Shown: one piece after another, positions 13,822-63,635 of the stretch
Numbering within the stretch: position 1 is the first letter of the stretch
Layout of the letters: each line of letters opens with the position of its first letter
Assembly (NCBI GenBank): GCA_016845225.1
Contig: JAERTB010000016.1
Span: 13,923 to 77,922 of the forward strand
Length of the DNA: 64,000 nt
Reading direction: 5' to 3'
Origin: Candidatus Woesearchaeota archaeon
Lineage (GTDB): Archaea > Nanobdellota > Nanobdellia > SCGC-AAA011-G17 > UBA489
Program-made: the position numbers and the translations under genes
Notes under the pieces: generated by a model
Seen by the model: only the letters and a program-made list of their open reading frames with translations
Database searches by the model: none
What the model was told of the DNA's origin: nothing

Positions 13822-13845
13822 AAACTTAAACACTAATTTTAAACC

Positions 13846-15267: not shown

Positions 15268-15301
15268 ACTTAAATACCAAATAACTACTATTTTTAACAA
15301 G

Positions 15302-16612: not shown

Positions 16613-16652
16613 GCCCAAAATCTATTTAAATCTCATATTTCTTAGTTTAACT

Positions 16653-17951
16653 ATGAAAACTAAATTTATTTCAATTCAAGAAGCATTAGATAAGGGAAAA
16701 GGGGAAGTTTCCATCAGAGGTTGGGCTCACAGACAAAGAGGTTCAAACAAATTAAAATTCGTAGTTCTTAGAGACGTATCAAATATTATTCAATGTGTTT
16801 TAAAGAAAGAAGATTTAGAAAAACAGTGGGAAGAAATAGACAAAATACAAGTTGAAACTTCATTACAATTCACAGGAACTTTATCAAAAGATGAAAGAGC
16901 ACCAACAGGTTATGAACTAAAAGTAAAAAAAGTAGACATAATCGGAACTTCAGATAAGTTTCCAATTACTAAAGATCAAAGTTATGAATATACATTAGAT
17001 ATGCGTCATCTTTCAATAAGAAGCAGGAAGATGATTGCAACACTAAAAATAAGAAGCACTGTTTTTGGAGCAATTCACGAATACTTTAGATCAAAAGGTT
17101 TCTATGAATATCACAGTCCTTCATTCACACCAAACGCTGCAGAAGGAGGGTCAACATTATTCAAAGTAGATTATTTTGGAAAAGAAATGTTCCTAACGCA
17201 AACTTGGCAATTATATGCTGAAGCAGGAATTCAAGCTTTAGAAAAAATTTACACAATAGCTCCAAGTTTTAGAGCAGAAAAAAGCAAAACTTCCAGACAC
17301 TTAACAGAATACTGGCATGCAGAAATGGAAGAAGCATGGACTACTTTTGATAACATCCAAGATCATGCAGAAGCATTACTAAAATTAATTATTTCTAAAG
17401 TTCTAAAAGAAAACAAAAAAGAATTAGAAGTTCTTGGAAGGGATTTAAAGAAGTTAGAACCGACTACAAAAAAAGCATTCCCTAGAATGACTTACGATGA
17501 AGTTTTAAAAATATTAGAAAAGAAAGCCAACATGAAAATTCCGTGGGGAAAAGATCTAAGAACAATTGAAGAAGACGAATTATCTAAAATGTATGATACC
17601 CCTGTTATTGTTACTGGCTATCCTAAACAAGTAAAAGCATTTTACATGAAAGAAGACCCAAAAAACCCTAAAGTTGTTCAAGGATTTGATGTTATTGGAC
17701 CAGAAGGATATGGAGAATTAGTTGGAGCAAGTCAAAGAGAAGAAGATATTGATAAATTAATAGAAGAACTTAAAGCAGAAGGAGAGGATCCAAAAGAGTA
17801 CGAGTGGTATTTAGATACCCGAAGATACGGTTCAATGCCAAGAGGTGGTTTTGGAATGGGAGTAGAAAGAATTATTTCTTGGATTTGCGGATTAGATAAT
17901 ATAAAGGACGCTATCGCTTTCCCAAGAACAATGACTCGACTTAAACCATGA
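16653..17951 (+). CDS. asnS: Asparagine--tRNA ligase
   Basis: A class IIb aaRS with FRAEKSKTSRHLTEYWHAEMEEAW and GGFGMGVERIISWICGLDNIKDAIAFPR. The length is 432 aa. Confidence 0.85.
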   Translation: MKTKFISIQEALDKGKGEVSIRGWAHRQRGSNKLKFVVLRDVSNIIQCVLKKEDLEKQWEEIDKIQVETSLQFTGTLSKDERAPTGYELKVKKVDIIGTSDKFPITKDQSYEYTLDMRHLSIRSRKMIATLKIRSTVFGAIHEYFRSKGFYEYHSPSFTPNAAEGGSTLFKVDYFGKEMFLTQTWQLYAEAGIQALEKIYTIAPSFRAEKSKTSRHLTEYWHAEMEEAWTTFDNIQDHAEALLKLIISKVLKENKKELEVLGRDLKKLEPTTKKAFPRMTYDEVLKILEKKANMKIPWGKDLRTIEEDELSKMYDTPVIVTGYPKQVKAFYMKEDPKNPKVVQGFDVIGPEGYGELVGASQREEDIDKLIEELKAEGEDPKEYEWYLDTRRYGSMPRGGFGMGVERIISWICGLDNIKDAIAFPRTMTRLKP

Positions 17952-39048: not shown

Positions 39049-39480
39049 TTTTTTATAATTTTATTTATGTCATAGATATCTCTCTATAATCAATCAAATC
39101 TTAGAAAATAAATAACTAACAAAACTCACAAACGTTATCAGATTTTGTAATTTTTGGTTTACCTTTCTTTTTCTTTTTCTTTTTAAAAATATCAAAGATC
39201 CCCATATCTAAAAAAATCAGTTTTTGTATATTTAAATCTTTCTTGAAAATGTTTCACCAACTAGTAATCATATACTCTTAAATAAATAAACCTATTCAGT
39301 ATATCAATGAACATAATCAGTAGTATGCCAAGTTATAGAACAACACTTACTACTGTGAAGAATATTTCTATTAAATTCAACTAAACCGGCTCAAGTCTTT
39401 GGTTGTTTTCAACATCAATTGGTTTGGGCCTTACTTCTAAGACATAATTAGAGTTATCTAAATTAAATGAACTATCATAA

Positions 39481-41127: not shown

Positions 41128-42933
41128 ATGGCAAGAAGAATAGCAATCATAGAGCAGGACAAGTGTCACCCAGATAAATGTGGTAACTTACTTTGTGCTA
41201 GACTGTGTCCTGTCAATAGAAAGGGAGAAGATTGTATTTCTAAAGGAGAATTAACAAAAAAAGCAATTATTGATGAAAAACAATGTACTGGGTGCGGAAT
41301 TTGTCCAAAAAGATGTCCTTTTGAAGCAATTCACATTATAAATTTACCAGAAAAATTAGAAGGAAACCCTATTCACAGATTTGGAAAAAACTCTTTTGAA
41401 TTATTCAATCTTCCGACAATTAAACCAGGTTCAGTAGTTGGATTAATTGGAAGAAATGGAATTGGAAAATCAACAGCTTTTGAAGTTTTAGCAGGAAACA
41501 TAACGCCTAACAATGGAAATTATGAGACTGAAATTACAGAAGAGAATATTAAATTACTAAAAGAAAGTATTTTACAAAAATATTCAAATTCTCAAACTGG
41601 AGAATATTTAACAAAAGTTTTTGATAAAAAAATAACAATTTCCTACAAACCACAAAGAATAGAATTACTTCCAAAACTATTTACTGGAAAAGTTATCGAA
41701 TTATTAGAAAAAGTTGATGAAAAAGGAAAATTGAATGAGATGATGGAGTTATTAGACATAACTCAAGTAAAAGATAATACTATCTCTGATTTATCTGGAG
41801 GAGAACTACAAAAAGTAGCAATCATTGCAACAGCATTAAAGAAAGCAGATGTATATTATTTTGATGAACCTTCTTCATTCTTAGATATTACTTCGAGAGT
41901 TAAGATGGCAAAATTAATCCAGTCATTAAAAGAAGATAATTCAGCAGTTATGGTTATTGAACATGATATTGCAACTCTAGATTATATTTCAGATGAAATC
42001 CAAATAGTATACGGTGAAAGGGCATGTTATGGTGTTACATCTATCTCTAAAGGAGTAAGAAATGGGATTAATGATTATTTAGAAGGATACCTGCCAGAGG
42101 ATAATGTGCGTTTCAGAGATTATCAAATTAAATTCTCAAGATCAATTGCAGAATTAAAAGAAGATGCAGATACTTTAGTTTCTTATAAAAATTTAAAAAA
42201 ATCTTTTGAAAATTTCAAAATGAATGTAGAAGAAGGAGAAATAAAACGTGGAGAGGTTTTAGCAATCATGGGTTCAAATGGATTAGGTAAATCTACATTT
42301 TTAAAAATGATTTCAAATAAAATAAAAGCAGACGAGGGGGAAATAGAAGGAGAATCAGAAATGAAAATTTCTTACAAACCTCAATACCCTGAACCAGAAG
42401 ATATTGTAGTAGAAGACTATCTTAAACATCATGCAGGTAAGGAAATGCAATCTGGATGGTATGAACAAAATATTTTAGAAAAGTTAAATATTAAATCAAT
42501 TCTAAAAAATAATTTAAAAAATCTATCTGGAGGAGAACTACAAAAAGTATTTGTTGCGGGGTGTCTTTCTGGCGAATCAGATTTAATTGTTTTAGATGAA
42601 CCTTCAGCATTCATAGATATAGAAGATAGAATTAATATTGCAGAAGTAATTAAAGAATTTACCAGAAAAAAAGAGATTGCATGCGTAGTAGTTGATCACG
42701 ATGTTCAATTTATAGAATATCTCGGAGATAAGATGCTAGTATTCGAAGGAATTCCGGGAAAAGAAGGGTCTGTTTATGGTCCATGTCCAAAAGAAGAAGG
42801 GATGAACAGAGTTCTAAAGATGTTAGAAATAACTTACAGAAAAGATAAAGATACAAATAGGGCAAGAATCAACAAACCAAATTCACAATTAGACAAAGAA
42901 CAGAGAACAAGCGGAAATTATTACTACATTTAA
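41128..42933 (+). CDS. abcE1: ABCE1/RLI ribosome-recycling ATPase
   Basis: An N-terminal 2x[4Fe-4S] domain (CHPDKCGNLLCARLCP; CTGCGICPKRCPFEAI) is followed by twin ABC cassettes (GRNGIGKST, LSGGELQKV, GSNGLGKST). Confidence 0.9.
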   Translation: MARRIAIIEQDKCHPDKCGNLLCARLCPVNRKGEDCISKGELTKKAIIDEKQCTGCGICPKRCPFEAIHIINLPEKLEGNPIHRFGKNSFELFNLPTIKPGSVVGLIGRNGIGKSTAFEVLAGNITPNNGNYETEITEENIKLLKESILQKYSNSQTGEYLTKVFDKKITISYKPQRIELLPKLFTGKVIELLEKVDEKGKLNEMMELLDITQVKDNTISDLSGGELQKVAIIATALKKADVYYFDEPSSFLDITSRVKMAKLIQSLKEDNSAVMVIEHDIATLDYISDEIQIVYGERACYGVTSISKGVRNGINDYLEGYLPEDNVRFRDYQIKFSRSIAELKEDADTLVSYKNLKKSFENFKMNVEEGEIKRGEVLAIMGSNGLGKSTFLKMISNKIKADEGEIEGESEMKISYKPQYPEPEDIVVEDYLKHHAGKEMQSGWYEQNILEKLNIKSILKNNLKNLSGGELQKVFVAGCLSGESDLIVLDEPSAFIDIEDRINIAEVIKEFTRKKEIACVVVDHDVQFIEYLGDKMLVFEGIPGKEGSVYGPCPKEEGMNRVLKMLEITYRKDKDTNRARINKPNSQLDKEQRTSGNYYYI

Positions 42934-43006
42934 TCAAATAGTTTAAAACATATATACCAATTCTATCAAATCTTTATAAATAATTAAATACTTACTAATT
43001 CTCAAC

Positions 43007-43059
43007 ACACAAGATATAGTGGTCCATATAATAAAAATACACTATCTCTAGTAGAGTGT
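43007..43059. promoter_or_regulatory. Two candidate NrdR boxes upstream of nrdR
   Basis: Box 1 at 43007-43022 is ACACAAGATATAGTGG, matching the NrdR-box consensus acacWAtATaTWgtgt at 14 of 16 positions. Box 2 at 43039-43059 is ACACTATCTCTAGTAGAGTGT, an imperfect palindrome with ACACT/AGTGT arms. Their centres are about 34 bp apart, 20-70 bp upstream of the nrdR ATG at 43079. Confidence 0.4.
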
Positions 43060-43078
43060 TACCTTGGAGTGATTAATC

Positions 43079-43522
43079 ATGTTATGTCCCTACTGTCAAA
43101 ATCAAGATACAAAAGTAATAGACAGTAGAGAAACAGAAAACGAAGAAGCAACAAGAAGACGTAGAGAATGTCTCAAATGTCAAAAAAGATTCACAACTTA
43201 TGAACGAGTTGAAACAGATTTGAGAGTAATAAAAAAAGACGGAACAGTAACTAATTATCAAAGAGACAAATTAAAATTAGGAATTTTAAAATCTTGTGAA
43301 AAAAGACCAGTTGAAACAGAAACGATTCATAATACCGTTAACAAAATAGAAGCAGAGTTAAGAGAAAAACAAAAAACAGACATCCCTTCAAAATTAATTG
43401 GAGAATTAGTTATGAAGGAATTAAAGAAATTAGACAAAATAGCATATATCAGATTCGCATCAGTCTACAAAGACTTTGAAGATATTGGTTCATTTGAAGA
43501 TGAACTAAAAAAACTAAAATAG
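43079..43522 (+). CDS. nrdR: Transcriptional repressor NrdR
   Basis: An N-terminal zinc ribbon MLCPYCQNQDTKVIDSRE...CLKCQKRFTTYERVE is followed by an ATP-cone. It is 147 aa and lies immediately upstream of the RNR gene. Confidence 0.85.
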   Translation: MLCPYCQNQDTKVIDSRETENEEATRRRRECLKCQKRFTTYERVETDLRVIKKDGTVTNYQRDKLKLGILKSCEKRPVETETIHNTVNKIEAELREKQKTDIPSKLIGELVMKELKKLDKIAYIRFASVYKDFEDIGSFEDELKKLK

Positions 43523-43535
43523 GGGAGAAAATAAA

Positions 43536-45641
43536 ATGAGTTTAGAATCAAAAATTAATTACACAAATGGAGACTTAAAGAATCCAATACAAACAAGAAT
43601 AGTAGAGCGTCTTAACGATGAAAGTTATGTTCCTTTTGAATTAGATCATGGATTTGTAAACAAATACCAAAAAGAAAAAGCCCCCTTTGGTTTTAATGGA
43701 TTAGGAGAAATTACATTTTATAGAACTTATTCTAGACTTAAAGAAGACGGCTCAAATGAAAATTGGGCAGATACTGTAGAACGTGTAGTTAATGGAACAT
43801 ATAACATGCAAAAAAGATGGATTGAAGAAAGGGGTATTGATTGGAGTGAAGCAAAAGCACAAGACAGTGCGCAAGAAATGTATGATAGAATGTTTAATAT
43901 GAAGTTTCTTCCACCTGGAAGAGGACTCTGGGGAATGGGAAGTGCTATTACAGAAGAGAGAGGAACATATGCAGCATTAAACAATTGCGCATTTGTTTCT
44001 ACAGAAAATTTACAAGAAGATTATTCAAAACCATTTACTTTCTTAATGGATGCTTCAATGTTAGGAGTGGGAGTAGGTTTTGATACAAAGGGTGCAGGAA
44101 AAGTAATCATCAGGGGCCCAGATCAACACAGGCAAAAAGAAATGTATGATGTACCTGACTCAAGGGAGGGATGGGTAAAAAGTGTAGGAATTTTATTGGA
44201 TAGTTATTTTTTAGGAACTCCTGAAGTTGAATTTGGTTATGACAGATTAAGACCAGAAGGAGAATTGATCAAAGGATTTGGAGGAAAAGCTTCAGGTCCG
44301 GACCCATTAAGAGAACTTCATAAGAATGTCCGAGGAGTATTAAACAAAGAAAGAGGCAGGCCTATGTCAACAAGAGCAATTGTAGACATACAAAACCTAA
44401 TTGGTAAATGTGTAGTTGCAGGGAATGTGAGAAGAACTGCAGAAATTTCTTTCGGTGATCCTTTCTCAGACGAATATTTAGATTTAAAGAATTACAAAGT
44501 TAATCCAGAAAGAGAAGCACATGGATGGGCAAGTAATAATTCTGTTTTTGCAGAATTGGGAATGGATTATTCAGATATTGCAGAAAGAATTAGAATTAAT
44601 GGTGAACCTGGAATTGCGTGGTTAGACAATATGAAAGAGTTTGGCCGTATGAATGGTCAAAAAGATCACAAAGATCATAGAGCTGGTGGAGGAAATCCAT
44701 GTTTAGAACAAACATTAGAAAGTTATGAGTTATGTTGTTTAGTTGAAAACTTTCCAAATAGGCACGAATCCATGGAAGATTTCTTACGAACACTAAAATT
44801 TTCATATTTATATGCTAAAACTGTAACTCTTGGAGAAACACATTGGCCAGAAACCAACAGAGTTCTATTAAGAAATAGAAGGATAGGTTGTTCAGTTAGC
44901 GGAGTTGCTCAATTTGTTTCAGACAAAGGAATTGGGGAATTAGAAACTTGGTTGAACGAAGGTTATGATACAATAGATAAATACGATGAAGTTTACAGTG
45001 ATTGGTTATGTATTCCAAGATCAATTAAAACAACTTCAGTAAAGCCTTCTGGAACTGTTAGTCTTTTAGCTGGTTCAACTCCTGGAGTTCATTTTCCAGC
45101 ATCAGAGTATTACATAAGAAGAGTAAGACTTGCAAAAAACAGTGACATTGTTGATCATTTAGCAGAAGCAGGATATCCTTTAGAACCTGCAGTAGGTTCA
45201 GAAGACTCCACACTGGTAACAGAAATTCCCGTTCATGCAGGAGAAGGAATAAGAACAGAAGACGATGTTTCCATGTGGGAACAATTAGGAATTGCTGCAT
45301 TCCTGCAAAAACATTGGGCAGATAATCAAATAAGTTGTACAGTTAAGTTTGATCCAGAAACAGAAGGAAAAGACATTCAACATGCATTAGATATTTATCA
45401 ATCCCAACTTAAGGGGATCAGTTTTTTACCTAAATTAGAAGAAGGAGCATATCCTCAAATGCCTTATGAACCAATAAACAAAGAAGAATATGAAGAAAAA
45501 CTTTCACACCTTAAACCTTTAAACCTAGGGCAAATAAAAAATGAAAAAGCTATTCCAGAAAAATTCTGCGACGGAGATACATGTGCTTTAGAAATGGCAA
45601 CTGAAGAAGTTAAACAAACTGAAGAGGTCAAGGTACAATGA
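43536..45641 (+). CDS. nrdJ: Class II (adenosylcobalamin-dependent) ribonucleotide reductase
   Basis: A 701-aa monomeric-type RNR with active-site region GGGNPCLEQTLESYELCCLVE and a C-terminal redox Cys pair CDGDTC. Confidence 0.8.
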   Translation: MSLESKINYTNGDLKNPIQTRIVERLNDESYVPFELDHGFVNKYQKEKAPFGFNGLGEITFYRTYSRLKEDGSNENWADTVERVVNGTYNMQKRWIEERGIDWSEAKAQDSAQEMYDRMFNMKFLPPGRGLWGMGSAITEERGTYAALNNCAFVSTENLQEDYSKPFTFLMDASMLGVGVGFDTKGAGKVIIRGPDQHRQKEMYDVPDSREGWVKSVGILLDSYFLGTPEVEFGYDRLRPEGELIKGFGGKASGPDPLRELHKNVRGVLNKERGRPMSTRAIVDIQNLIGKCVVAGNVRRTAEISFGDPFSDEYLDLKNYKVNPEREAHGWASNNSVFAELGMDYSDIAERIRINGEPGIAWLDNMKEFGRMNGQKDHKDHRAGGGNPCLEQTLESYELCCLVENFPNRHESMEDFLRTLKFSYLYAKTVTLGETHWPETNRVLLRNRRIGCSVSGVAQFVSDKGIGELETWLNEGYDTIDKYDEVYSDWLCIPRSIKTTSVKPSGTVSLLAGSTPGVHFPASEYYIRRVRLAKNSDIVDHLAEAGYPLEPAVGSEDSTLVTEIPVHAGEGIRTEDDVSMWEQLGIAAFLQKHWADNQISCTVKFDPETEGKDIQHALDIYQSQLKGISFLPKLEEGAYPQMPYEPINKEEYEEKLSHLKPLNLGQIKNEKAIPEKFCDGDTCALEMATEEVKQTEEVKVQ

Positions 45642-46069
45642 TTAACATAAAGTTCAAAAAATTACATGAAGACGCATTAATTCCTGCATATGCAAAACAA
45701 GGAGATGCAGGAATGGATGTTTGTTCAATTGATAATTATGAACTTTCTCCAAATAATTCTATTTTAGTTAAGACAGGGTTGGCAATGGAACTTCCATTTG
45801 GATATGAAGCACAAGTTAGACCTCGTTCAGGTTTAGCATACAAAAATCAAATAACTGTGTTAAATTCTCCTGGAACTATCGATTCAGGCTACAGAAATGA
45901 AATTGGTGTAATATTAATTAATCATGGAAAAGAAATTTTTAACATTAAAAAAGGGGAAAGGATCGCACAGTTAGTTATTGCAAAACACGAAACACCTACA
46001 ATTGAAGAAGTTATTAAACTTACTGAATCTGAAAGAGGCTTAGGCGGTTTTGGAAGTACTGGAAAATAA
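45638..46069 (+). CDS. dut: dUTP diphosphatase
   Basis: The motifs AGMDV, RSGLA and GTIDSGYRNE are present, with C-terminal ERGLGGFGSTG. It shares a 4-nt overlap with nrdJ. Confidence 0.85.
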   Translation: MINIKFKKLHEDALIPAYAKQGDAGMDVCSIDNYELSPNNSILVKTGLAMELPFGYEAQVRPRSGLAYKNQITVLNSPGTIDSGYRNEIGVILINHGKEIFNIKKGERIAQLVIAKHETPTIEEVIKLTESERGLGGFGSTGK

Positions 46070-46441
46070 TTACAAATCAAAACCAACTAGAAGTGTAGCT
46101 TCCTCTGGTTTCAAAGAAAGTTTTAAACTATCAATCAATTCTTGATGCATTTTAAATCCAGGAGATGAAGATACCACATTATCTGCAGTTATTTCTGGAA
46201 AACTAATCCCTGGAAAAGTAATATTGTTGCCTTCAGTCTTAACAATTGCATCTGTAGGATCTCTAAAACTAGAATCATGAGATAATAGTAGGGTGTGTCT
46301 TCTTTTCAAAGACTCAAAAACTCCATGGTTATTTGTTTCTTCAACATTCATTATTCTCTCTTTAAATCCATCGTCCAGAACTTTAAGTACAGTCAGTCCT
46401 TGAATTTTATTAAGATCTTCTTTAATTTTTAATAATTCCAT
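46070..46441 (-). CDS. Hypothetical protein
   Basis: A 123-aa ORF with typical local composition. No recognisable motif was found. Confidence 0.35.
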   Translation of the reverse strand: MELLKIKEDLNKIQGLTVLKVLDDGFKERIMNVEETNNHGVFESLKRRHTLLLSHDSSFRDPTDAIVKTEGNNITFPGISFPEITADNVVSSSPGFKMHQELIDSLKLSLKPEEATLLVGFDL

Positions 46442-47653: not shown

Positions 47654-47806
47654 CATGAAATGCGACGTTTGCAAGGAAAAAATAGAAGAAAATTTCCTAC
47701 AAAAAATCCAAGGAACATACATAGGCTCAGGTAAAAGTAAAAAAGCAATTTGTCAAAACTGTCAAAAAACTCATTCTATTGAAGAATTAAAAGAGAAATT
47801 AAAATA
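47654..47806 (+). CDS. Small zinc-ribbon protein (50 aa)
   Basis: MKCDVCKEKIEENFLQKIQGTYIGSGKSKKAICQNCQKTHSIEELKEKLK has CxxC...CxxC. It fills a gap upstream of the tRNA. It is below the ORF-track size cutoff. Confidence 0.3.
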
Positions 47807-47811
47807 ACTCT

Positions 47812-47883
47812 CGCCACCGTGGCTCAATGGTAGAGCATCGCTCTCGTAAAGCGAAGGTTGAGGGTTCAAGTCCCTTCGGTGGC
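47812..47883 (+). tRNA. tRNA-Thr (anticodon CGU)
   Basis: The cloverleaf has acceptor GCCACCG/CGGTGGC, D-arm GCTC-AATGGTA-GAGC, anticodon stem TCGCT/AGCGA with loop CTCGTAA, and T-arm GAGGG-TTCAAGT-CCCTT. The length is 72 nt. Confidence 0.8.
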
Positions 47884-47957
47884 TTTTAGATCAAAATTTT
47901 AGTATTAGATAGGTTTATATATTATTAGTTACTAATTAGTAGTGAATATATATTAAA

Positions 47958-55863: not shown

Positions 55864-56451
55864 TCAAAGGTAATTCTTTCTTTCCATTCTTTCTCTTATT
55901 TGTTTAATAGTTACACAAACATAAGTGCGAGACTTATCCAAAACATCTGCAATATCTATATTTTTATAACCTAAAAGTTTCATATCTAATGTCAATAGTT
56001 TAGAAGGATTTAAACCATAAACCAAATCGTCTAAAGTTTCTTTAGCACACATAACATCAAATCCTGAGGGTGTTTTAAAATCTTCCAATACATAGGCTGA
56101 TTGTTCTGGGTTAAATTCTTCAGAATTTATGTTTGTAGAGTAAGTTTGAGGTTTATTTTCTAATCTCATGTATTTAGTCAAAACATCTCTGATTCCAAAA
56201 TCAATATGCATTCCTGCAAATTTTCTAAATGTTAGTCCTCTATCCTCTTCATATTTTCTTGCAGCTTTAAGCAATCCATCAATTGCCCCATCATAAAATT
56301 CTTCATCAGAAATTTTATAGAATCTGCGACCATATCTTTGAGAAATAGTTTCTGCCAAATTTAATAAATAATCTTTATCATTTTCAATTATTTCTTTTTC
56401 ATCACTAGTAAGGACCCTATTGCCTATTCTTTCCATATACATTTTAAACAA
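55864..56451 (-). CDS. Sigma-70-family-like protein (region 2 plus region 4 HTH), 195 aa
   Basis: DGAIDGLLKAARKYEEDRGLTFRKFAGMHIDFGIRDVL aligns by eye with sigma region 2.2-2.4 (EGNIGLMKAVEKFD..RG.KFSTYA..WI...I). The C-terminal LTLDMKLLGYKNIDIADVLDKSRTYVCVTIKQIRERM fits a region-4-like HTH pattern. Confidence 0.5.
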   Translation of the reverse strand: MFKMYMERIGNRVLTSDEKEIIENDKDYLLNLAETISQRYGRRFYKISDEEFYDGAIDGLLKAARKYEEDRGLTFRKFAGMHIDFGIRDVLTKYMRLENKPQTYSTNINSEEFNPEQSAYVLEDFKTPSGFDVMCAKETLDDLVYGLNPSKLLTLDMKLLGYKNIDIADVLDKSRTYVCVTIKQIRERMERKNYL

Positions 56452-57041: not shown

Positions 57042-57641
57042 ATGAAAAAGGGGCAGGTATATCTTTTAGCAGTAATTATTATGGGATTTCTAATCTACAC
57101 AATGTTACTTCCAGTTAATTTTCTAAAAACTTCAGAAATAGATGACGATTTTCAAGAAATTTCAAAGAATTATCAATTAGAAAGTGCAAAACTTCTAAAT
57201 GAATTATTAAACACTCAAAACTTAAATCAAGATTTTGTTGAAGGAAGGTTTCTTAATTTCACTGTAGCATTTACATCTTACTCCAAATCAAAAAATCCTA
57301 ACTTCGGATTAGTTTATGCATTTCCTTTCAACAATAAAGTATTTTTAGGAAATTACGCAGATTCTCCATTAAATTATACTCAAACAGATCAAATACAAGG
57401 ATGTTTGTCAGATGTAACTGCAGCAATATCTTTATTGGGTATAGATGTATCCTCTCCAGACATAGATGTGGGCACCTATACCGATTGCATGACTTCAATA
57501 ACCTACCCTTTAAATGACAAGTTAGATTTAATCTTGGACAACTCAGAATATTCATTCACACTTTCAGATTCAACTTCAAACTTAATAATAATTAACAAAG
57601 AAAGCATTGAAGGAGATGTTAAAATCTTCATAAGTGAATAA
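57042..57641 (+). CDS. Class III signal peptide (pilin-like) protein, 199 aa
   Basis: The N-terminus MKKGQ|VYLLAVIIMGFLIYTMLLPV is prepilin-like. Confidence 0.55.
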   Translation: MKKGQVYLLAVIIMGFLIYTMLLPVNFLKTSEIDDDFQEISKNYQLESAKLLNELLNTQNLNQDFVEGRFLNFTVAFTSYSKSKNPNFGLVYAFPFNNKVFLGNYADSPLNYTQTDQIQGCLSDVTAAISLLGIDVSSPDIDVGTYTDCMTSITYPLNDKLDLILDNSEYSFTLSDSTSNLIIINKESIEGDVKIFISE

Positions 57642-58119
57642 AAAAACTAATAAACAAAATAAAACACTAAATAACATGCAAAAAAACAAAAGAGGAGTTT
57701 CACCAGCAATAAGTTGGATATTGTTAATAGGATTTACAATGGCTTTAGCAGGTTTTTCAATGACTTGGATGAGAGAAACAGCATCATCAACTTCTGAAAA
57801 AATGGTAGATAATGTGGGTTCTGATTTAGAATGTGGAGATGTTTCAATAAATGCATACGAAGAAACTTCAACAACAACAGGTTGTTCAAAAGTAAACATC
57901 ATCAACAGAGGTTTTTTCACAGTCACTGGTGTAAAAGTTAGATCCGGAAGTGGATTAGAAGAAATTACTCAAGAAATAAAACCAACACAAGAAGCATTAA
58001 TAAATCCAACAATAAGTAGTTTTTTACCAAATAATGAAATAGGAATCATTCCACAAATATCTTATAAAGATTCAAATCTAGTTTGTATAAATAAAGAGGT
58101 TAGAATAAAATGCACATAA
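57634..58119 (+). CDS. Archaeal type IV pilin (Pilin_N-type N-terminus)
   Basis: QKNKRG|VSPAISWILLIGFTMALAGFSMTW matches the archaeal pilin/flagellin N-terminal domain. The true start is probably the internal MQKNKRG at about 57676. Confidence 0.65.
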   Translation: MNKKTNKQNKTLNNMQKNKRGVSPAISWILLIGFTMALAGFSMTWMRETASSTSEKMVDNVGSDLECGDVSINAYEETSTTTGCSKVNIINRGFFTVTGVKVRSGSGLEEITQEIKPTQEALINPTISSFLPNNEIGIIPQISYKDSNLVCINKEVRIKCT

Positions 58120-58568
58120 CTAAAAAGGGAGTTTCACCATTAATCGCAACAAGTATTCTAATTGGTTTCGCAGTAGTTATTACTACTATAGTAATCCTTT
58201 TTGGAGGAGAACTAATTGAAGAGATTCAGCAAAAACAAGGGAAAACATTAACAAAAACAATTCAGTGCGATAACATGCATTTCAAAGTTACAGATATTAT
58301 TAACGATGATATTTGGTTATTGAATGATGGAACTACAGATATTCACGCATTTATGTTAAGATACAAAGGAGATGATGCAGAATATGTAAATTCCCATCTA
58401 AAAACCACAATCCCTGCAGGAGGATCAGGAAAAATAACTGCTGCAACTCCTCCAGGAATAGGAAAATTAAACACATTAACAATTTTTGCTAAAAGTGCGG
58501 CAGGGCCAGAAGGAAGCATTATTTGGGGCACATGCGGGTCTACAGAAACATCTGTAAACTTTCCATAA
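58110..58568 (+). CDS. Archaeal type IV pilin
   Basis: The N-terminus MHITKKG|VSPLIATSILIGFAVVITTIV is pilin-type. Confidence 0.7.
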   Translation: MHITKKGVSPLIATSILIGFAVVITTIVILFGGELIEEIQQKQGKTLTKTIQCDNMHFKVTDIINDDIWLLNDGTTDIHAFMLRYKGDDAEYVNSHLKTTIPAGGSGKITAATPPGIGKLNTLTIFAKSAAGPEGSIIWGTCGSTETSVNFP

Positions 58569-58619
58569 CAGTAAACTTTAATAATAACAAATAGTAAAAA
58601 TTAAACGAGGTAATTAACA

Positions 58620-59084
58620 ATGATTAAAAACAAAAGAGGAATTTCACCATTAATCGCAACAGTTCTATTAATTGGATTCGCAGTAGCTCTAGCAGCTGTA
58701 GTAATGACATGGGGCCTAGACTTCATTAAATCAACAGCAGACACAACAGAGCAACAAACTGAAAACACTTTAATTTGTGCAACTGAACTTTCTTTTGCAA
58801 TATCTAACGTAGATCTTATCACAGGAACAGTTACAGTAGATAATCGTGGACAAGTAGATATTAACAGTTTAGCATTTAGGGTTTATAATGCATCAGGCGT
58901 AACAACTAATGTAACTACAGAAACAATTGCAAAGTTTGAAGTTAAAACTTTAACTCCTACAATTACTGGTTCAAATTTAATAGGTTCAGACGTAACAAAG
59001 GTTGAAGCAATTGCAACAGTTCCAGGAAGTTCTGGACAAGGTGACATAATCTGTTCCCAAAATTTGCAATCATATCAAATTTAA
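58620..59084 (+). CDS. Archaeal type IV pilin
   Basis: The N-terminus MIKNKRG|ISPLIATVLLIGFAVALAAVVMTWG is pilin-type. It is a paralogue of the 58110 gene. Confidence 0.7.
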   Translation: MIKNKRGISPLIATVLLIGFAVALAAVVMTWGLDFIKSTADTTEQQTENTLICATELSFAISNVDLITGTVTVDNRGQVDINSLAFRVYNASGVTTNVTTETIAKFEVKTLTPTITGSNLIGSDVTKVEAIATVPGSSGQGDIICSQNLQSYQI

Positions 59085-59126
59085 GTTTAATGGAGTAATC
59101 ACTCCATTTTTTCTTTTTATTTTAAC

Positions 59127-59663
59127 ATGACTATTAATTCCAAAGAAAAGCAAGGCCAAATATGGATTTCTGCAATTCTATTTTTATCAATTGGAGTTAT
59201 GATTATTGTATTAATACTTTCAGCAATTATGCCAGTAGTAGATAGATTAGCAGATAGAAACACTCTTTCCTCAACAAAGAATCTTTTACTAGAAATGGAT
59301 GAAACAATTAAAACAGTTGCAAGAGAAGGGCCAGGCAGTCAAAGAAACTTAGATATCACTCTAAACAAAGGAGAATTATACTTCCAAAATGATACCTATC
59401 AAATTAAATGGATCATGGAAACAGAGTCAGAAATAATGGAAAAAGGAATAGATATTCCTGAAGGAAACATAGTGCAACATCTAAATGCTACAAGAGTGGA
59501 TCAAATATCAAACCTAATGCTTTGGATAACCTCAAATAAATACAACACCTCAATCAATTCACAATTTTCCAATCCTTTTACTGGCAAACACACATTAACA
59601 GTAAAACATACAGGAATAATACACCCTAACGACAATCCATTAATTGAATTAAAAATAACTTAA
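59127..59663 (+). CDS. Pilin-like / minor pilin protein
   Basis: The N-terminus KEKQGQ|IWISAILFLSIGVMIIVLILSAIMPV is prepilin-like. Confidence 0.5.
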   Translation: MTINSKEKQGQIWISAILFLSIGVMIIVLILSAIMPVVDRLADRNTLSSTKNLLLEMDETIKTVAREGPGSQRNLDITLNKGELYFQNDTYQIKWIMETESEIMEKGIDIPEGNIVQHLNATRVDQISNLMLWITSNKYNTSINSQFSNPFTGKHTLTVKHTGIIHPNDNPLIELKIT

Positions 59664-59719
59664 TGAGAAACTATTAAAAAAGCCAAAACACAGTATATAA
59701 TTATCAAAAATAGAGGTGT

Positions 59720-61309
59720 ATGGTGGATAATTCAACTAAAAGAGGGTCTTCTGAATCAGTGCCTATTCCGGCAGCAGATTTTGGAATAGAAAAAGCAACA
59801 GAGATACCATCCTTGCCAGATTTCTCAGAAAAAAGAAAAATAGATATCAAATATCCGCTAATCAAACCATATGCTTATGCACATATTCATTGGGATGAAG
59901 ATCAAAAAGAAGTGATTTATGAATTAAAAGAGCCACCATTAAATCTAAAGGAAAAACATGTTCTCAAAGAATTAGAAAAAGGATTAGAAGAATTAATCAA
60001 TATTAGTTTCATTAATATTAAAGATAAAGAAGCAGTAATTTCTTACTTAGAAAAGAATGCAAGAGTTCTATTAGCAGAGTTAGGATTAAAACCGCCAAAA
60101 GAAGTATTCCTAAAATTAATGTATTATATTTATAGGGACTTTGTTGGTTTAAACAGAATTGAAGCATTAATGAATGACTACCATATAGAAGATATTGAAT
60201 GTAATGGTTCAAATTTAGAATTGTATATAGTTCATAGAAAGTATAGAAATCTAAAAACAAATATCACTTTCAAATCCAATGATGAATTAACTTCTTTCGT
60301 TGAAAAACTTTCTCAAAAATGTGGAAAGTATATTTCATATGCTAGTCCAATCTTAGATGGAAGATTACCAGATAAAAGCAGAGTTAATGCAACCTATACG
60401 CAAGATATTTCTTCAAGAGGTCCAACCTTCACAATTCGTAAATTTACTAGTGAGCCTTGGAGTCCAATCAAACTAATTGATGTAAAAACAGCAAGTCCAG
60501 AACTTTTAGCATATTTGTGGATGTTAATAGAGTATGAATCAAACATCGTAGTAATTGGGGGAACAGGTTCAGGTAAAACTTCATTTTTAAACAGTATAGC
60601 CTTCTTTATACCTCCTCAATCAAGAATTGTTTCAATAGAAGATACACATGAATTAAATCTACTACACACTAACTGGTTACCTTCAGTTTCTCGTGAAGCC
60701 ACAGGGGTAGGGACAGAAGGAAAATTCGGAGAAGTTTCATTATTTACCTTACTAAAAGCAAGTTTTAGACAAAGGCCAGACTACGTTATCGTGGGAGAGA
60801 TTAGAGGTCAAGAAGCATTTGTTTTATTCCAGGGAGCTGCATCGGGACATCCCACAATGTGTACTATGCACGCAGAAGATGTTGAAACAATGATCAGAAG
60901 ATTAGAAACTCCTCCAATTAGTTTACCTCCATCATTAGTAGAAACCTTAGATGCAGTTTGTGTAATGACTCAAACAAAAGTAAATGGTAAGGAAGTTAGA
61001 AGATTAAAAAGTGTAACTGAAGTATTGAAAGTTGGTCAAAAATTAGGAACTGTAGAAAAAAATGTTCCATTTATTTGGGATCCAAAAACAGATAAATTCT
61101 TTTTCAAAAAACAAAGTGCATTATTCCAAAAATTACAAAAAGAATTTGGAATGGACGAACAAACAATACAAAAAGAATTTCAAAGAAGAACTACTTTACT
61201 TTGGACACTATATAAAAAAGGAATTTCAGGATATTCAGAAGTACAAAAAATAATCAGTGCTTATTCAAAATCTCCAGAAGAAGTCCTAAGAAGATTTAAC
61301 ATTCAATAA
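59720..61309 (+). CDS. Type IV pilus/archaellum-type assembly ATPase (FlaI/TadA/VirB11 superfamily)
   Basis: Walker A VVIGGTGSGKTSFLNS, Walker B DYVIVGEIRG and His-box TMHA are present, along with an N-terminal FlaI-like domain. The length is 529 aa. Confidence 0.85.
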   Translation: MVDNSTKRGSSESVPIPAADFGIEKATEIPSLPDFSEKRKIDIKYPLIKPYAYAHIHWDEDQKEVIYELKEPPLNLKEKHVLKELEKGLEELINISFINIKDKEAVISYLEKNARVLLAELGLKPPKEVFLKLMYYIYRDFVGLNRIEALMNDYHIEDIECNGSNLELYIVHRKYRNLKTNITFKSNDELTSFVEKLSQKCGKYISYASPILDGRLPDKSRVNATYTQDISSRGPTFTIRKFTSEPWSPIKLIDVKTASPELLAYLWMLIEYESNIVVIGGTGSGKTSFLNSIAFFIPPQSRIVSIEDTHELNLLHTNWLPSVSREATGVGTEGKFGEVSLFTLLKASFRQRPDYVIVGEIRGQEAFVLFQGAASGHPTMCTMHAEDVETMIRRLETPPISLPPSLVETLDAVCVMTQTKVNGKEVRRLKSVTEVLKVGQKLGTVEKNVPFIWDPKTDKFFFKKQSALFQKLQKEFGMDEQTIQKEFQRRTTLLWTLYKKGISGYSEVQKIISAYSKSPEEVLRRFNIQ

Positions 61310-61314
61310 TCAAG

Positions 61315-61497
61315 ATGTCTTTAGAATCAATAAAACAAAATGCTCAAAGCATAATCTCTGCAAATGAAAAATACTCTCAATTAGTTTTAAAGCCAACACA
61401 TGATAAAAAAGAAGCAGAAAAATTAAAAAAATACATCTTAACACTATCTAACACAATTTCTAAACAGTTAGGGGAAGTAAAGAAAGATGTCGATTAG
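61315..61497 (+). CDS. Small coiled-coil protein between ATPase and platform genes
   Basis: A 60-aa ORF that overlaps the next start by 11 nt. It has no recognisable domain. Confidence 0.3.
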   Translation: MSLESIKQNAQSIISANEKYSQLVLKPTHDKKEAEKLKKYILTLSNTISKQLGEVKKDVD

Positions 61498-62773
61498 CGA
61501 TAATGCTCAAGAAATTATTTCTTTAGTTTCCCAATTAGAAAAAGAACTTGTTCCTAAAAAGAAGCACGAACTTATAGAAAAGATAGAAAAAGCGAATCAA
61601 CGAATTCAATCAGAAGTTTCTTCAGAATCAAGACCATTATTATATACAGGAGTAATGGATAAACTTCCAGCAAAATCAACTGCTCCAGAACCTTCTCCAC
61701 CTACACCAGAAAAGCCACATAAGCAACCTGGACCAATTCAAACTAAACAAATTAAGAAAAAGAAAACATCACCAAAAACAAAAAAGAAATTGATGGAAGA
61801 GTTAAAGATTAATCAAGAAGATTTAGAAAAAGCATATCCTAAAAGAAAAACAAAGAGTTCAAAAAAAAGTGACTTCACAGTTTATGTTACAAGTCCTTTT
61901 GGAAAACTTTCAAATCAATTCTTCGGAAACTATGTTTCAAATCTATTCGATAAAAAGAAGCCATTCATCAGAAATTTAGCAGATTCAGTAAGAATATCTG
62001 GAATGCCTATTCTATCAAGAACTTATATCAGTATGATGTATTTCTCTTCATTAGTTGGATCAATGCTTGCAATGTTAGTAGCATTGGTAGTTTCGTATCT
62101 TGCAGGGCTAAGCATTACAATTATGGCAGTATCAATGATTATCTCTCTAATTAGTGTAGGACTTTTAGTATTTCTTGGAATGTATGCATATCCTGCATCG
62201 GAGGCATCAGCAAAATCTAGGGCAATAGACAATGACTTACCTTTCGCAACAATTCACATGGCGGCAGTAGCAGGTTCAGGTGCACAACCCATAGCAATGT
62301 TTAGGTTGTTATTAAAATCTGGAGAATATAAAGGATTAGAAAGCGAAATAAAAAAAATCGTAAACTTAGTTAATCTATTTGGCTATGACCTTTCAACAGC
62401 ATTAAAGAACGTATCATTAAGAACTCCCTCAAGAAGATTTAAGGAGTTATTAACTGGAATTGCATCAACAATTGAATCCGGAGGAAGTCTAAAATCTTAT
62501 CTTAAAGGCGTTGCAGATGAATCGATGACAACCTACAGATTAGAACGAAAGAAGTACGTTGAATCTTTAGCAACATATTCAGACATCTACACAGGAGTTT
62601 TAATCGCAGCACCATTATTATTCATGGTAGCACTTACAATTATAAACATGGTCGGAGGACAAGTTGGAGGATTAGAGGTATCTACTTTAGCATGGGGCGG
62701 AACATTATTGGTTTTACCTATTGTAAATATATTATTTTACATTTTCCTAAACATTTCACAACCTGGAGAATAA
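61487..62773 (+). CDS. Pilus platform membrane protein, TadB/FlaJ-like (one T2SSF domain) with Lys/Pro-rich N-terminal extension
   Basis: After a roughly 170-aa hydrophilic N-terminus (PEPSPPTPEKPHKQPGP; K-rich) come 2 TM, a cytoplasmic T2SSF-like domain (AIDNDLPFATIHMAAVAGSGAQPIAMF), then 2 TM. Confidence 0.65.
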   Translation: MSISDNAQEIISLVSQLEKELVPKKKHELIEKIEKANQRIQSEVSSESRPLLYTGVMDKLPAKSTAPEPSPPTPEKPHKQPGPIQTKQIKKKKTSPKTKKKLMEELKINQEDLEKAYPKRKTKSSKKSDFTVYVTSPFGKLSNQFFGNYVSNLFDKKKPFIRNLADSVRISGMPILSRTYISMMYFSSLVGSMLAMLVALVVSYLAGLSITIMAVSMIISLISVGLLVFLGMYAYPASEASAKSRAIDNDLPFATIHMAAVAGSGAQPIAMFRLLLKSGEYKGLESEIKKIVNLVNLFGYDLSTALKNVSLRTPSRRFKELLTGIASTIESGGSLKSYLKGVADESMTTYRLERKKYVESLATYSDIYTGVLIAAPLLFMVALTIINMVGGQVGGLEVSTLAWGGTLLVLPIVNILFYIFLNISQPGE

Positions 62774-62774
62774 A

Positions 62775-63635
62775 ATGTCAAGATTAAAATTTAAACCAGT
62801 TTATACATTGAGCATATTAGCAGGAGTAATGGTAATTCTTCTTGCAATTAAATTCCAATTTGGAGAAAGATTTTTCTTTCCATTAATCATTTTATCCTTA
62901 GTTGTTTCATCACTTCATTTTTGGATTGATTTTTTTGCAGAACAAAATAGACAAAAATTAATCGAAGTAATGTTTTTAGAATTTATTAGAAATCTTTCAG
63001 AATCAATTAAATCAGGAATTTCTATTCCAAGATCTATTCAAAACATAGCAAAAAGAGATTATGGAGAGTTATCTCCTTACATAAAAAAATTATCTAACCA
63101 GATAGAATGGGGGATACCAACAAGAAAAGCTCTTCAAACATTTGCAGAAGATACAGAGAATAGAGTGATAATAAGGTCAATTTCATTAGTTTCTGAAGCA
63201 GAAAAATCAGGAGGAGATATTACAGACATTTTATCTTCGGTAGTTGAATCTGTAGTAAGTGTTAAACAAATAAAAGAAGAAAGAAAATCCCAAATTCATG
63301 CCCAAGTAGTTCAAGGGTACATAATCTATTACGTCTTCATTGGAATCATGTTAGTCTTAGATTTATGGCTATTTCCCCAATTAACTGGTGTTGAAACCTC
63401 TTCTTCAATTCAGGCAGGGGCAAGTGGTGTGGGTGGAATGGGATTGGCTGGAGCAGGTGGAGGCGCATTAGACATGGGCCCAATATTTCTTACATTAATA
63501 TTAATCCAAGGATTTTTTGCAGGAATAATGATTGGGAAATTTTCAGAGGGAACAATCAAAAACGGATTATTACATTCATTGATAATGATGGTTTCAGCTG
63601 CGCTGATAATTACAACATTAAAGGGAGGAATATGA
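62775..63635 (+). CDS. Pilus platform membrane protein, TadC/FlaJ-like (second T2SSF domain)
   Basis: It has 2 TM, a cytoplasmic T2SSF-like domain (SGISIPRSIQNIAKRDYGELSPYIKKLSNQIEWGIPTRKALQTF) and C-terminal TMs with a Gly-rich loop. It starts 1 nt after the previous stop. Confidence 0.65.
   Translation: MSRLKFKPVYTLSILAGVMVILLAIKFQFGERFFFPLIILSLVVSSLHFWIDFFAEQNRQKLIEVMFLEFIRNLSESIKSGISIPRSIQNIAKRDYGELSPYIKKLSNQIEWGIPTRKALQTFAEDTENRVIIRSISLVSEAEKSGGDITDILSSVVESVVSVKQIKEERKSQIHAQVVQGYIIYYVFIGIMLVLDLWLFPQLTGVETSSSIQAGASGVGGMGLAGAGGGALDMGPIFLTLILIQGFFAGIMIGKFSEGTIKNGLLHSLIMMVSAALIITTLKGGI

What the first reader, a model, noticed from the sequence alone, without database searches (positions are those of the whole stretch)
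43007..46069. nrdR-nrdJ-dut operon with predicted NrdR operator boxes in an archaeon
NrdR is a predominantly bacterial repressor. Here it sits directly upstream of a class II RNR and a translationally coupled dUTPase. Two sequences 20-70 bp upstream of nrdR resemble NrdR boxes: ACACAAGATATAGTGG matches the consensus acacWAtATaTWgtgt at 14 of 16 positions, and ACACTATCTCTAGTAGAGTGT is an imperfect palindrome. They are spaced at roughly three helical turns, as in bacterial NrdR operators. This suggests an intact, autoregulated, bacterial-style dNTP-supply regulon in an archaeal genome.
Basis: partly seen in the sequence, partly recalled or inferred. Interest (0 to 1): 0.55.

Follow-up and report, generated by a model that had tools for sequence, protein, structure and literature searches.

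The report
NrdR-repressed RNR operon in Woesearchaeon
A marine DPANN archaeon carries a three-gene operon for making DNA building blocks, and two well-conserved docking sites for its own NrdR repressor sit just downstream of an archaeal TATA box; this is a clear but expected example of a system already known from bacteria and reported in some archaea.

Summary
nrdR (43079-43522), a monomeric RTPR-type class II ribonucleotide reductase (43536-45641) and a trimeric-type dUTPase (45638-46069, ATGA overlap) form one + strand operon in an archaeal genome. Neighbouring genes include ABCE1/RLI, GatD/GatE and archaeal pilins.

Two NrdR boxes lie upstream: 43007-43022 and 43039-43054, with a 16-bp linker.
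- A matrix built only from ten experimentally validated E. coli and S. coelicolor boxes ranks them 1st and 3rd of 63,985 positions in the window.
- The pair scores 30.5 bits. The next best pair scores 11.6, and the highest score in 200 simulated windows was 22.2.
- In related Woesearchaeota/DPANN loci the boxes and the linker length are conserved, while the linker sequence and the flanks are not.
- C4, A6 and G13 are invariant in both boxes.

It starts 34 bp before box 1, so the boxes would cover about +4 to +51. The inferred mechanism is that dATP/ATP-loaded NrdR blocks archaeal RNA polymerase at the start site.

NrdR is already reported in 22% of archaeal genomes, so this is a new member of a known kind. 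One caveat: the ATP-cone Glu equivalent to S. coelicolor E56 is Thr here.

The parts
42973..42982 (+). Archaeal TATA box TTTATAAATA, preceded by an A-rich BRE-like stretch
   Evidence: The TTTAnAnA columns are invariant in alignment A2 of 7 lineages. Mean pairwise identity is 0.90, against 0.46-0.48 in the flanks. TTTAWATA starts 33-38 bp upstream of box 1 in 12 of 23 archaeal nrdR loci.
43002..43006 (+). Predicted transcription start (inferred, not mapped)
   Evidence: Inference from the general rule that archaeal TATA boxes are centred about 26-27 bp upstream of the start site. No transcript data were available.
43007..43022 (+). NrdR box 1, ACACAAGATATAGTGG
   Evidence: 14 of 16 matches to the consensus, and all six key positions (C4, A6, A8, T9, T11, G13) are present. 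It ranks 1st of 63,985 positions with the bacterial-trained matrix, at 17.3 bits. Identity across lineages is 0.78.
43023..43038 (+). 16-bp linker between the boxes: length conserved, sequence not
   Evidence: Linkers are 15-16 bp in all close relatives, with sequence identity of only 0.40. The canonical length is 15-16 bp (PMC13584703).
43039..43054 (+). NrdR box 2, ACACTATCTCTAGTAG
   Evidence: 12 of 16 matches. C4, A6, T9, T11 and G13 are present; position 8 is C. It ranks 3rd in the window at 13.2 bits. C4, A6, T11 and G13 are invariant across lineages. [quoted passage not shown]
43066..43073 (+). Shine-Dalgarno-like GGAGTGAT, 5 nt before the nrdR ATG
   Evidence: (A/G)GTGAT is conserved in alignment A2, with identity 0.73.
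43079..43522 (+). nrdR: Zn-ribbon plus ATP-cone repressor, 147 aa
   Evidence: TIGR00244 at 194 bits against a cut-off of 124.65; PF22811 and PF03477. PDB NrdR entries 9FVR and 7P37 match at E=1e-41 and 3e-28. C3, C6, C31, C34, D15, R17, R26-29 and R37 are present.
43536..45641 (+). Class II (adenosylcobalamin) ribonucleotide reductase of the monomeric RTPR type, with no ATP-cone
   Evidence: TIGR02505 at 347.2 bits against a cut-off of 340.05; PF17975 and PF21995. L. leichmannii RTPR 1L1L matches at E=1.6e-93, and the NPC(L)E active-site motif aligns. The gap after nrdR is 13 nt and contains GGGGAG.
45638..46069 (+). dut: trimeric-type dUTPase, whose start overlaps the nrdJ stop (ATGA)
   Evidence: TIGR00576 at 181 bits and PRK00601 at 177 bits, both above cut-off; PF00692. 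The overlap was read from the sequence. dut follows the RTPR-type gene in L081, L083 and L090.

Best explanation
This is a functional, autoregulated NrdR regulon in a marine Woesearchaeon (DPANN).

Promoter. Transcription of nrdR, the RTPR-type class II RNR and dut starts from an archaeal TATA/BRE promoter. The TATA box is at 42973-42982, and the start site is inferred at about 43002-43006.

Operator. The two 16-bp NrdR boxes, separated by 16 bp, lie immediately downstream and cover roughly +4 to +51.

Mechanism, by analogy with the S. coelicolor and E. coli structures. When dATP rises, NrdR carrying ATP in the inner ATP-cone site and dATP in the outer site forms a tetramer. Its two Zn-ribbon pairs bind both boxes and kink the DNA sharply. 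In this archaeal promoter that would leave TBP/TFB binding possible but block RNA polymerase loading or promoter escape. All three genes, nrdR included, would be shut off.

Why it makes sense. The RTPR-type reductase has no ATP-cone of its own, so NrdR supplies the dATP feedback at the level of transcription. A triphosphate reductase makes dUTP directly from UTP, so co-expressing dUTPase is logical.

What is shown: gene identities, box quality, conservation of the boxes and their spacing, and the conserved TATA box. What is inferred: the start-site position, nucleotide-dependent binding, repression, and the RNA polymerase block.
For: Gene assignments are above curated cut-offs.

Box statistics. 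The matrix from 10 validated bacterial boxes ranks the two boxes 1st and 3rd in the window. The pair scores 30.5 bits, against 11.6 for the next best and a null maximum of 22.2. The consensus pair score is 26/32, against a maximum of 24 in 300 simulations.

Location across loci. In 17 of 28 archaeal nrdR loci, the only pair of 18 bits or more in 5-8 kb is directly upstream of nrdR. Proteobacterial nrdR loci, whose upstream regions show no box pair in this scan, score 13-16/32 and served as an internal negative control.

Phylogenetic footprint across 7 lineages with 66-94% NrdR identity. Identity is 0.90 for the TATA box, 0.78 for box 1, 0.64 for box 2 and 0.73 for the SD, against 0.40-0.48 for linker and flanks. 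C4, A6 and G13 are invariant in both boxes, and the linker is always 15-16 bp.

TATA position. The TATA box starts 33-38 bp before box 1 in 12 of 23 archaeal loci.

NrdR residues. The DNA-contact residues D15, R17, R26-29 and R37 are conserved, as are the nucleotide-site residues equivalent to V48, K50, K62, K69, F124, V127 and Y128 (residue roles from PMC9110341).

Exclusions. There is no riboswitch or other Rfam family in the leader.

Tolerance of deviations. E. coli and S. coelicolor NrdR bind each other's sites, and C at box position 8 is tolerated (PMC13584703).
Against: No transcript or binding data exist for any archaeal NrdR, so the start site and the repression are inferred.

The residue equivalent to S. 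coelicolor E56 is Thr58 here and in the two closest relatives. E56 bonds the inner-site adenine, and its mutation abolished nucleotide and DNA binding (PMC9110341).

Box 2 departs from the consensus at 4 positions, including A8.

Eleven of 28 archaeal loci showed no strong pair upstream of nrdR.

Only 64 kb of the genome was visible, so the full extent of the regulon is unknown.
Confidence: 0.8

Rival explanations
1. The boxes are non-functional relics that arrived with a horizontally transferred bacterial nrdR-nrdJ cassette. The operon is expressed constitutively from the archaeal promoter.
For: NrdR is mainly bacterial. DPANN NrdRs interleave with CPR and other bacterial sequences in the rough tree. 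The E56-equivalent residue is Thr. Some archaeal loci lack strong pairs.
Against: The boxes and the 15-16 bp spacing are kept across lineages with only 53-94% NrdR identity, while the linker sequence and flanks have diverged to 0.40-0.48 identity. The six functionally critical positions are the invariant ones. The position relative to the archaeal TATA box is also conserved, which points to selection in the archaeal context.
Confidence: 0.05
2. The palindromes act at the RNA level, as hairpins in the roughly 75-nt 5' leader that affect stability or translation, or they are bound by a regulator other than NrdR.
For: If the inferred start site is right, both boxes are transcribed. Each box is a partial palindrome that could form a short hairpin.
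Against: The paired positions C4 and G13 are invariant rather than covarying. The motif matches a matrix trained only on sites shown experimentally to bind NrdR. The linker is constrained in length to the 15-16 bp that NrdR requires. No Rfam family matches the leader. The motif occurs only next to nrdR.
Confidence: 0.04
3. The promoter lies in the linker, where the window has ATATAATAAAAATA. NrdR would then repress by sandwiching and hiding the TATA box rather than by blocking the start site.
For: In this window the linker is A/T-rich and TATA-like.
Against: The linker sequence is not conserved: identity is 0.40, and L083 and L088 have G/C-containing linkers that are not TATA-like. The upstream TTTATAAATA is invariant, and its distance to box 1 recurs in 12 of 23 loci.
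Confidence: 0.08
4. The match is chance similarity in AT-rich intergenic DNA.
For: The window is 31% G+C. Matches to the consensus with 3 or fewer mismatches are expected 1.7 times per window.
Against: A hit with 2 or fewer mismatches is expected 0.10 times. A pair score of 26/32 was never reached in 300 simulations. The matrix pair score is 30.5 bits against a null maximum of 22.2. The site is conserved in relatives.
Confidence: 0.01

Closest known systems
Streptomyces coelicolor nrdRJ operon (NrdR autoregulating itself and a class II RNR; cryo-EM structures 7P37, 7P3F, 7P3Q)
   Same: nrdR is the first gene and is co-transcribed with a class II RNR. Two 16-bp NrdR boxes with a 15-16 bp linker overlap the start-site region, so the repressor regulates itself. 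The Zn-ribbon DNA-contact residues and most ATP-cone residues are conserved (PMC9110341, PMC13584703).
   Different: The host is an archaeon with a TATA/BRE promoter rather than -35/-10 elements. The boxes lie wholly downstream of the TATA box. The RNR is the monomeric RTPR type, not the dimeric NrdJ type. dut is added to the operon. The protein is 147 aa and lacks the long C-terminal tail. E56 is replaced by Thr.
Haloarchaeal nrdR-nrdA-nrdB / nrdR-nrdB-nrdA operons (Lundin et al. 2010, PMC3019208)
   Same: An archaeal genome carries nrdR directly upstream of RNR genes, interpreted as acquisition from bacteria.
   Different: Those operons encode class I RNRs in Halobacteriales, some of them on plasmids. 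This one is a class II RTPR-type enzyme in a DPANN archaeon. That paper did not analyse NrdR boxes or promoter geometry.
Archaeal repressors that bind downstream of the TATA box and block RNA polymerase recruitment (for example MDR1, LrpA, Phr; from my own knowledge, not tested here)
   Same: The operator is placed over the start site, just downstream of TATA/BRE.
   Different: Those belong to unrelated protein families (DtxR, Lrp, wHTH). NrdR is a Zn-ribbon/ATP-cone protein that senses dATP and ATP and bends DNA by about 180 degrees.
Lactobacillus leichmannii RTPR (PDB 1L1L)
   Same: The class II reductase here is its homologue (E=1.6e-93) and matches the same NCBIfam equivalog. It has the NPC-E thiyl-radical motif and a C-terminal Cys pair.
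   Different: The archaeal host. The score is only just above the equivalog cut-off (347 against 340). Substrate phosphorylation state and B12 use were not tested.

Membership tests
NrdR transcriptional repressor (TIGR00244) | Full-length match to the curated equivalog model above its cut-off | tested here: met
   194 bits against a cut-off of 124.65, covering residues 1-146 of 147.
NrdR transcriptional repressor (TIGR00244) | N-terminal Zn-ribbon with two CxxC motifs and the DNA-contact residues D15, R17, RRRR 26-29 and R37 | tested here: met
   C3, C6, C31, C34, D15, R17, R26-R29 and R37 are present and invariant among 19 DPANN sequences. Position 12 is K, as in E. coli. Residue roles are taken from PMC9110341.
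NrdR transcriptional repressor (TIGR00244) | ATP-cone with the residues of the inner (ATP) and outer (ATP/dATP) nucleotide sites | tested here: inconclusive
   PF03477 scores 73 bits. The equivalents of V48, K50, K62, K69, F124, V127 and Y128 are kept, and R51 is replaced by K. The equivalent of E56 is T58 in this lineage but Glu in most DPANN NrdRs. The effect of that change is unknown.
NrdR transcriptional repressor (TIGR00244) | A pair of 16-bp NrdR boxes with a 14-17 bp (or 24-27 bp) linker in an RNR promoter region | tested here: met
   Boxes at 43007-43022 and 43039-43054 with a 16-bp linker. They rank 1st and 3rd with the matrix, and the pair scores 30.5 bits. They are conserved in relatives.
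NrdR transcriptional repressor (TIGR00244) | dATP/ATP-dependent tetramer binding to the boxes, and repression of RNR transcription | not testable with these tools
   This needs purified protein (MST or EMSA) and an archaeal transcription assay.
Class II RNR, monomeric RTPR type (TIGR02505) | Match to the equivalog above its cut-off and homology to L. leichmannii RTPR, including the active-site Cys motif | tested here: met
   347.2 bits against a cut-off of 340.05. 1L1L matches at E=1.6e-93 with GNPC(L)E aligned to GTNPCGE. The RNR_Alpha and RNR-II insertion domains are present. The margin over the cut-off is small.
Class II RNR, monomeric RTPR type (TIGR02505) | Adenosylcobalamin dependence and NTP (not NDP) substrates | not testable with these tools
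   A biochemical assay is required.
Trimeric dUTPase (Dut; TIGR00576, PRK00601) | Match above the cut-offs, with the conserved C-terminal and GTIDSGYR motifs | tested here: met
   181.3 bits against a cut-off of 102.55, and 177.3 against 103. The motifs GTIDSGYRNE and RGLGGFGSTG were read from the translation.
Archaeal TATA/BRE promoter | A TTTAWATA-like element about 26-27 bp upstream of a mapped transcription start | tested here: inconclusive
   The element is present and invariant. No transcription start data are available.

The most novel reading that the evidence does not exclude
NrdR has been stably rewired into the archaeal transcription apparatus across DPANN lineages. The operator is fixed at a set distance (TATA start 33-38 bp before box 1), so that a dATP/ATP-sensing, DNA-bending bacterial-type repressor blocks archaeal RNA polymerase at +4 to +51. 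It would be the only dATP feedback on an RNR that has no ATP-cone of its own. The promoter-nrdR module stays constant while the RNR gene behind it is swapped between types. I found no study of the promoter geometry or function of any archaeal NrdR in the searchable literature.
Probability: 0.6. Interest if true: 0.4.

Novelty: new member of a known kind. Interest (0 to 1): 0.3.

Why it matters
NrdR is being studied as an antibacterial target and as a model of regulation by the ATP-cone. All mechanistic work so far is bacterial, and some recent papers still state that archaea lack it.

This locus and its relatives show that the same operator grammar is under selection in DPANN archaea: critical C4 and G13, a 15-16 bp linker, and free linker sequence. 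Here it is placed against a TATA-box promoter.

That gives a concrete, testable case of a bacterial-type repressor working with the archaeal, eukaryote-like basal transcription machinery. It also shows that genome-reduced symbiont-like archaea keep dNTP-supply control. It does not change the current understanding of NrdR.

Tried and rejected
(1) The 21-nt palindrome as the unit of box 2. Rejected: only the first 16 nt align with the conserved C4/G13 register in relatives, and that register gives the canonical 16-bp linker.

(2) A TATA box inside the linker. Rejected because the linker sequence is not conserved.

(3) A riboswitch or other known RNA in the leader. No Rfam match at E<=1 in 42800-43700.

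(4) A sigma-70-type promoter upstream of nrdR. The scan found none on the + strand between 42934 and 43078, and overall hits were at the level of shuffled sequence.

(5) Further regulon members in the window. No other pair scored above 22/32 or 11.6 bits. The candidates at 39311, 56536 and 18537 are at chance level.

(6) The 143-aa ORF after the RNR in L085 as a diverged dut. There is no similarity.

(7) Origin of NrdR. A neighbour-joining tree of 87 sequences over 149 columns interleaves DPANN, CPR and some other bacteria. It has no support values, so the direction of transfer was not resolved.

(8) DNA for the P0011 locus (78% identity) was not retrievable.

(9) The 195-aa ORF at 55864-56451 looked regulator-like to me but has no Pfam match.
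Full report
**What is there.** Three + strand ORFs fill the region.
- 43079-43522 encodes a 147-aa protein with Zn_ribbon_NrdR and ATP-cone domains. It matches the NrdR equivalog TIGR00244 at 194 bits against a cut-off of 124.65.
- 43536-45641 starts 13 nt after nrdR behind a GGGGAG. It encodes a 701-aa class II ribonucleotide reductase of the monomeric RTPR type: TIGR02505 at 347.2 bits against a cut-off of 340.05, and L. leichmannii RTPR 1L1L at E=1.6e-93 with the NPC-E active-site motif aligned. It has no ATP-cone.
- 45638-46069 encodes a trimeric-type dUTPase: TIGR00576 at 181 bits and PRK00601 at 177 bits. Its ATG overlaps the reductase stop codon as ATGA.

**The organism is archaeal.** The gene immediately upstream is ABCE1/RLI (PRK13409, 773 bits). 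The window also holds GatD/GatE, an ATP-dependent DNA ligase, L10e, and pilins with archaeal class III signal peptides next to a PilB-like ATPase. The best NrdR homologues (up to 94% identity) are labelled Woesearchaeota, Nanoarchaeota or Aenigmarchaeota by their sources, and many come from marine metagenomes including Tara.

**The boxes.**
- Box 1, ACACAAGATATAGTGG, lies at 43007-43022. It matches ACACWATATATWGTGT at 14 of 16 positions and has all six positions that the literature calls highly conserved: C4, A6, A8, T9, T11 and G13 (PMC13584703).
It matches at 12 of 16 positions. C4, A6, T9, T11 and G13 are present, and position 8 is C.
- The linker is 16 bp, so the boxes are 32 bp apart centre to centre. 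That is the predominant 15-16 bp linker of bacterial sites.

**Is it more than chance?**
- A hit with 2 or fewer mismatches is expected 0.10 times per window.
- The two-box score of 26/32 is unique in the window. The next best is 22, and the maximum in 300 first-order Markov simulations of 64 kb was 24.
- I built a position weight matrix from only the ten E. coli and S. coelicolor boxes whose binding was measured (Table 1 of PMC13584703). With it, box 1 ranks 1st and box 2 ranks 3rd of 63,985 positions.
- The pair scores 30.5 bits. The next best pair scores 11.6. The per-window maximum in 200 simulations averaged 11.4 and never exceeded 22.2.

**Comparative evidence.**
- A scan of species-representative genomes returned 80 nrdR loci, 22 of them archaeal, mostly DPANN. 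Look-ups of close homologues added loci with 66-94% NrdR identity.
- With the bacterial-trained matrix, 17 of 28 archaeal loci have a box pair of 18 bits or more. In every case it is the only such pair in the 5-8 kb locus and sits directly upstream of nrdR.
- Proteobacterial nrdR loci, whose upstream regions show no box pair in this scan, score only 13-16/32 and act as an internal negative control.
- I aligned the upstream regions of seven lineages (A2) and measured mean pairwise identity per segment:

| Segment | Identity |
|---|---|
| TATA element | 0.90 |
| Box 1 | 0.78 |
| Shine-Dalgarno | 0.73 |
| Box 2 | 0.64 |
| Linker | 0.40 |
| Other flanks | 0.45-0.48 |

- C4, A6 and G13 are invariant in both boxes, and the linker is always 15 or 16 bp. 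Conserved key positions, constrained spacing and free linker sequence are exactly what is described for bacterial NrdR sites.

- An invariant TTTATAAATA lies at 42973-42982 and starts 34 bp upstream of box 1.
- Across 23 archaeal loci with box pairs, a TTTAWATA match of 7/8 or better starts 33-38 bp before box 1 in 12 loci and 22-27 bp before it in 4 more.
- The general rule, from established knowledge and not tested here, is that archaeal TATA boxes are centred about 26-27 bp upstream of the start site. That puts the start at about 43002-43006, box 1 at about +4 to +19 and box 2 at about +36 to +51, in a leader of about 75 nt.
- The A/T-rich linker of this window looks TATA-like, but it is not conserved in relatives and I reject it as the promoter.
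- No sigma-70-like site lies on the + strand upstream of nrdR. No Rfam family, including any riboswitch, matches the leader.

[quoted passage not shown] Its two Zn-ribbon pairs bind the two boxes and kink the DNA at each (PMC9110341).
- The archaeal protein keeps the DNA-contact residues D15, R17, R26-29 and R37.
- It keeps the nucleotide-site residues equivalent to V48, K50, K62, K69, F124, V127 and Y128, and R51 becomes K.
- I infer the same nucleotide switch. Given the operator position, I infer repression by excluding RNA polymerase from the start site rather than by hiding the TATA box.
- nrdR is the first gene, so the circuit regulates itself, as in the S. coelicolor nrdRJ operon.
- One deviation must be flagged. 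The residue equivalent to S. coelicolor E56 is Thr58 in this protein and its two closest relatives, and Glu in most other DPANN NrdRs. E56 bonds the inner-site adenine, and its mutation abolished nucleotide and DNA binding.
- The boxes remain conserved in that sub-lineage (window, L081, L083), which argues that the protein still works. This is not proven.

**Why dut is there (inference).** A triphosphate reductase produces dUTP directly from UTP, so stoichiometric dUTPase is sensible. In the relatives, dut follows the RTPR-type gene (L081, L083, L090) and a 990-aa RNR without an ATP-cone (L088). It is absent after RNRs that carry an ATP-cone, where CobA or another RNR follows (L085, L087, the P0011 locus). 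The sample is small.

**Comparison with what is known.**
- The closest system is the S. coelicolor nrdRJ operon.
- NrdR in archaea is not new. It is described as 'rare in archaea' (PMC9110341) and as present in 22% of archaeal genomes (PMC13584703). 'A few archaeal RNRs' are said to be controlled by it (PMC12051234). Haloarchaeal nrdR-nrdAB operons were tabulated in 2010 (PMC3019208).
- Other recent texts still say archaea lack it.
- No searchable paper combines NrdR with DPANN or Woesearchaeota, and none discusses NrdR with archaeal promoter elements.
- The locus is therefore a new member of a known kind. The fixed geometry relative to a TATA box is a modest addition.

**Origin.** A neighbour-joining tree of 87 NrdR sequences places the window in a clade of marine Woesearchaeota. 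DPANN sequences in general interleave with CPR (Microgenomates-type) and a few other bacterial sequences. The protein is short and the tree has no support values, so I draw no conclusion beyond 'compatible with inter-domain transfer'.

**Verdict.** Interest is modest at 0.3.

Noticed in passing
window 57634-63635: Three adjacent small ORFs (57634-58119, 58110-58568, 58620-59084) begin with K(R/K)G(V/I)SP(L/A)I followed by a hydrophobic helix, which is the archaeal class III (type IV pilin) signal. A PilB/T2SSE-type ATPase (59720-61309) and two T2SSF membrane proteins (61487-62773, 62775-63635) follow. This is probably an archaeal type IV pilus locus. Pfam Pilin_N matches only weakly (E=0.044).
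   Followed up: partly
L081, L083, L085, L087, L088, L090 and the P0011 locus: The nrdR gene and its promoter/operator stay in place while the RNR gene behind them differs between related Woesearchaeota. It is RTPR-type with dut in some, ATP-cone/lgN/lgC type with a CobA adenosyltransferase in others, two such RNRs in L085, and a 990-aa lgC+TSCPD type with a DCD/dUTPase in L088. dut follows only RNRs that lack an ATP-cone.
   Followed up: partly
window 43250-43252 (NrdR residue 58): The Glu that bonds the inner-site adenine in S. coelicolor NrdR (E56) is Thr in this protein and in P0001 and P0005. It is Glu in most other DPANN NrdRs, and Gln or Ala in a few.
   Followed up: partly
window 46070-46441 (-): A 123-aa ORF with no family match lies convergent to dut and abuts its stop codon. 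A gene of similar length with no family on record sits in the same position in L081, L083 and L088, next to a DUF1385 gene; the products were not compared. Its function is unknown.
   Followed up: no
window 55864-56451 (-): A 195-aa ORF lies just upstream of, and divergent from, the pilus-like cluster. It has no Pfam match at E<=0.1. By eye the sequence looked regulator-like, with a helix-turn-helix-like C-terminus, but nothing supports this.
   Followed up: partly
window 12514-17951: GatD (12514-13821), GatE (13846-15267), an unassigned 436-aa ORF (15302-16612) and a class II Asp/Asn/Lys-type tRNA synthetase (16653-17951) are clustered. This is the archaeal tRNA-dependent Gln pathway placed next to an aminoacyl-tRNA synthetase.
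   Followed up: no
window 47655-47884: A 50-aa ORF with two CxxC pairs (a zinc-ribbon-like mini-protein) lies immediately before tRNA-Thr(CGT) at 47813-47884. A 50-aa gene is called in the same place in L081 and L082.
   Followed up: no
L083 48-362 and L090 2309-2623: In two relatives a thioredoxin gene lies upstream of the nrdR operon (separated from it by RLI in L083), and L083 also has an ArsC-family gene downstream. These are possible reductants for the RNR. The window has RLI directly upstream instead.
   Followed up: no
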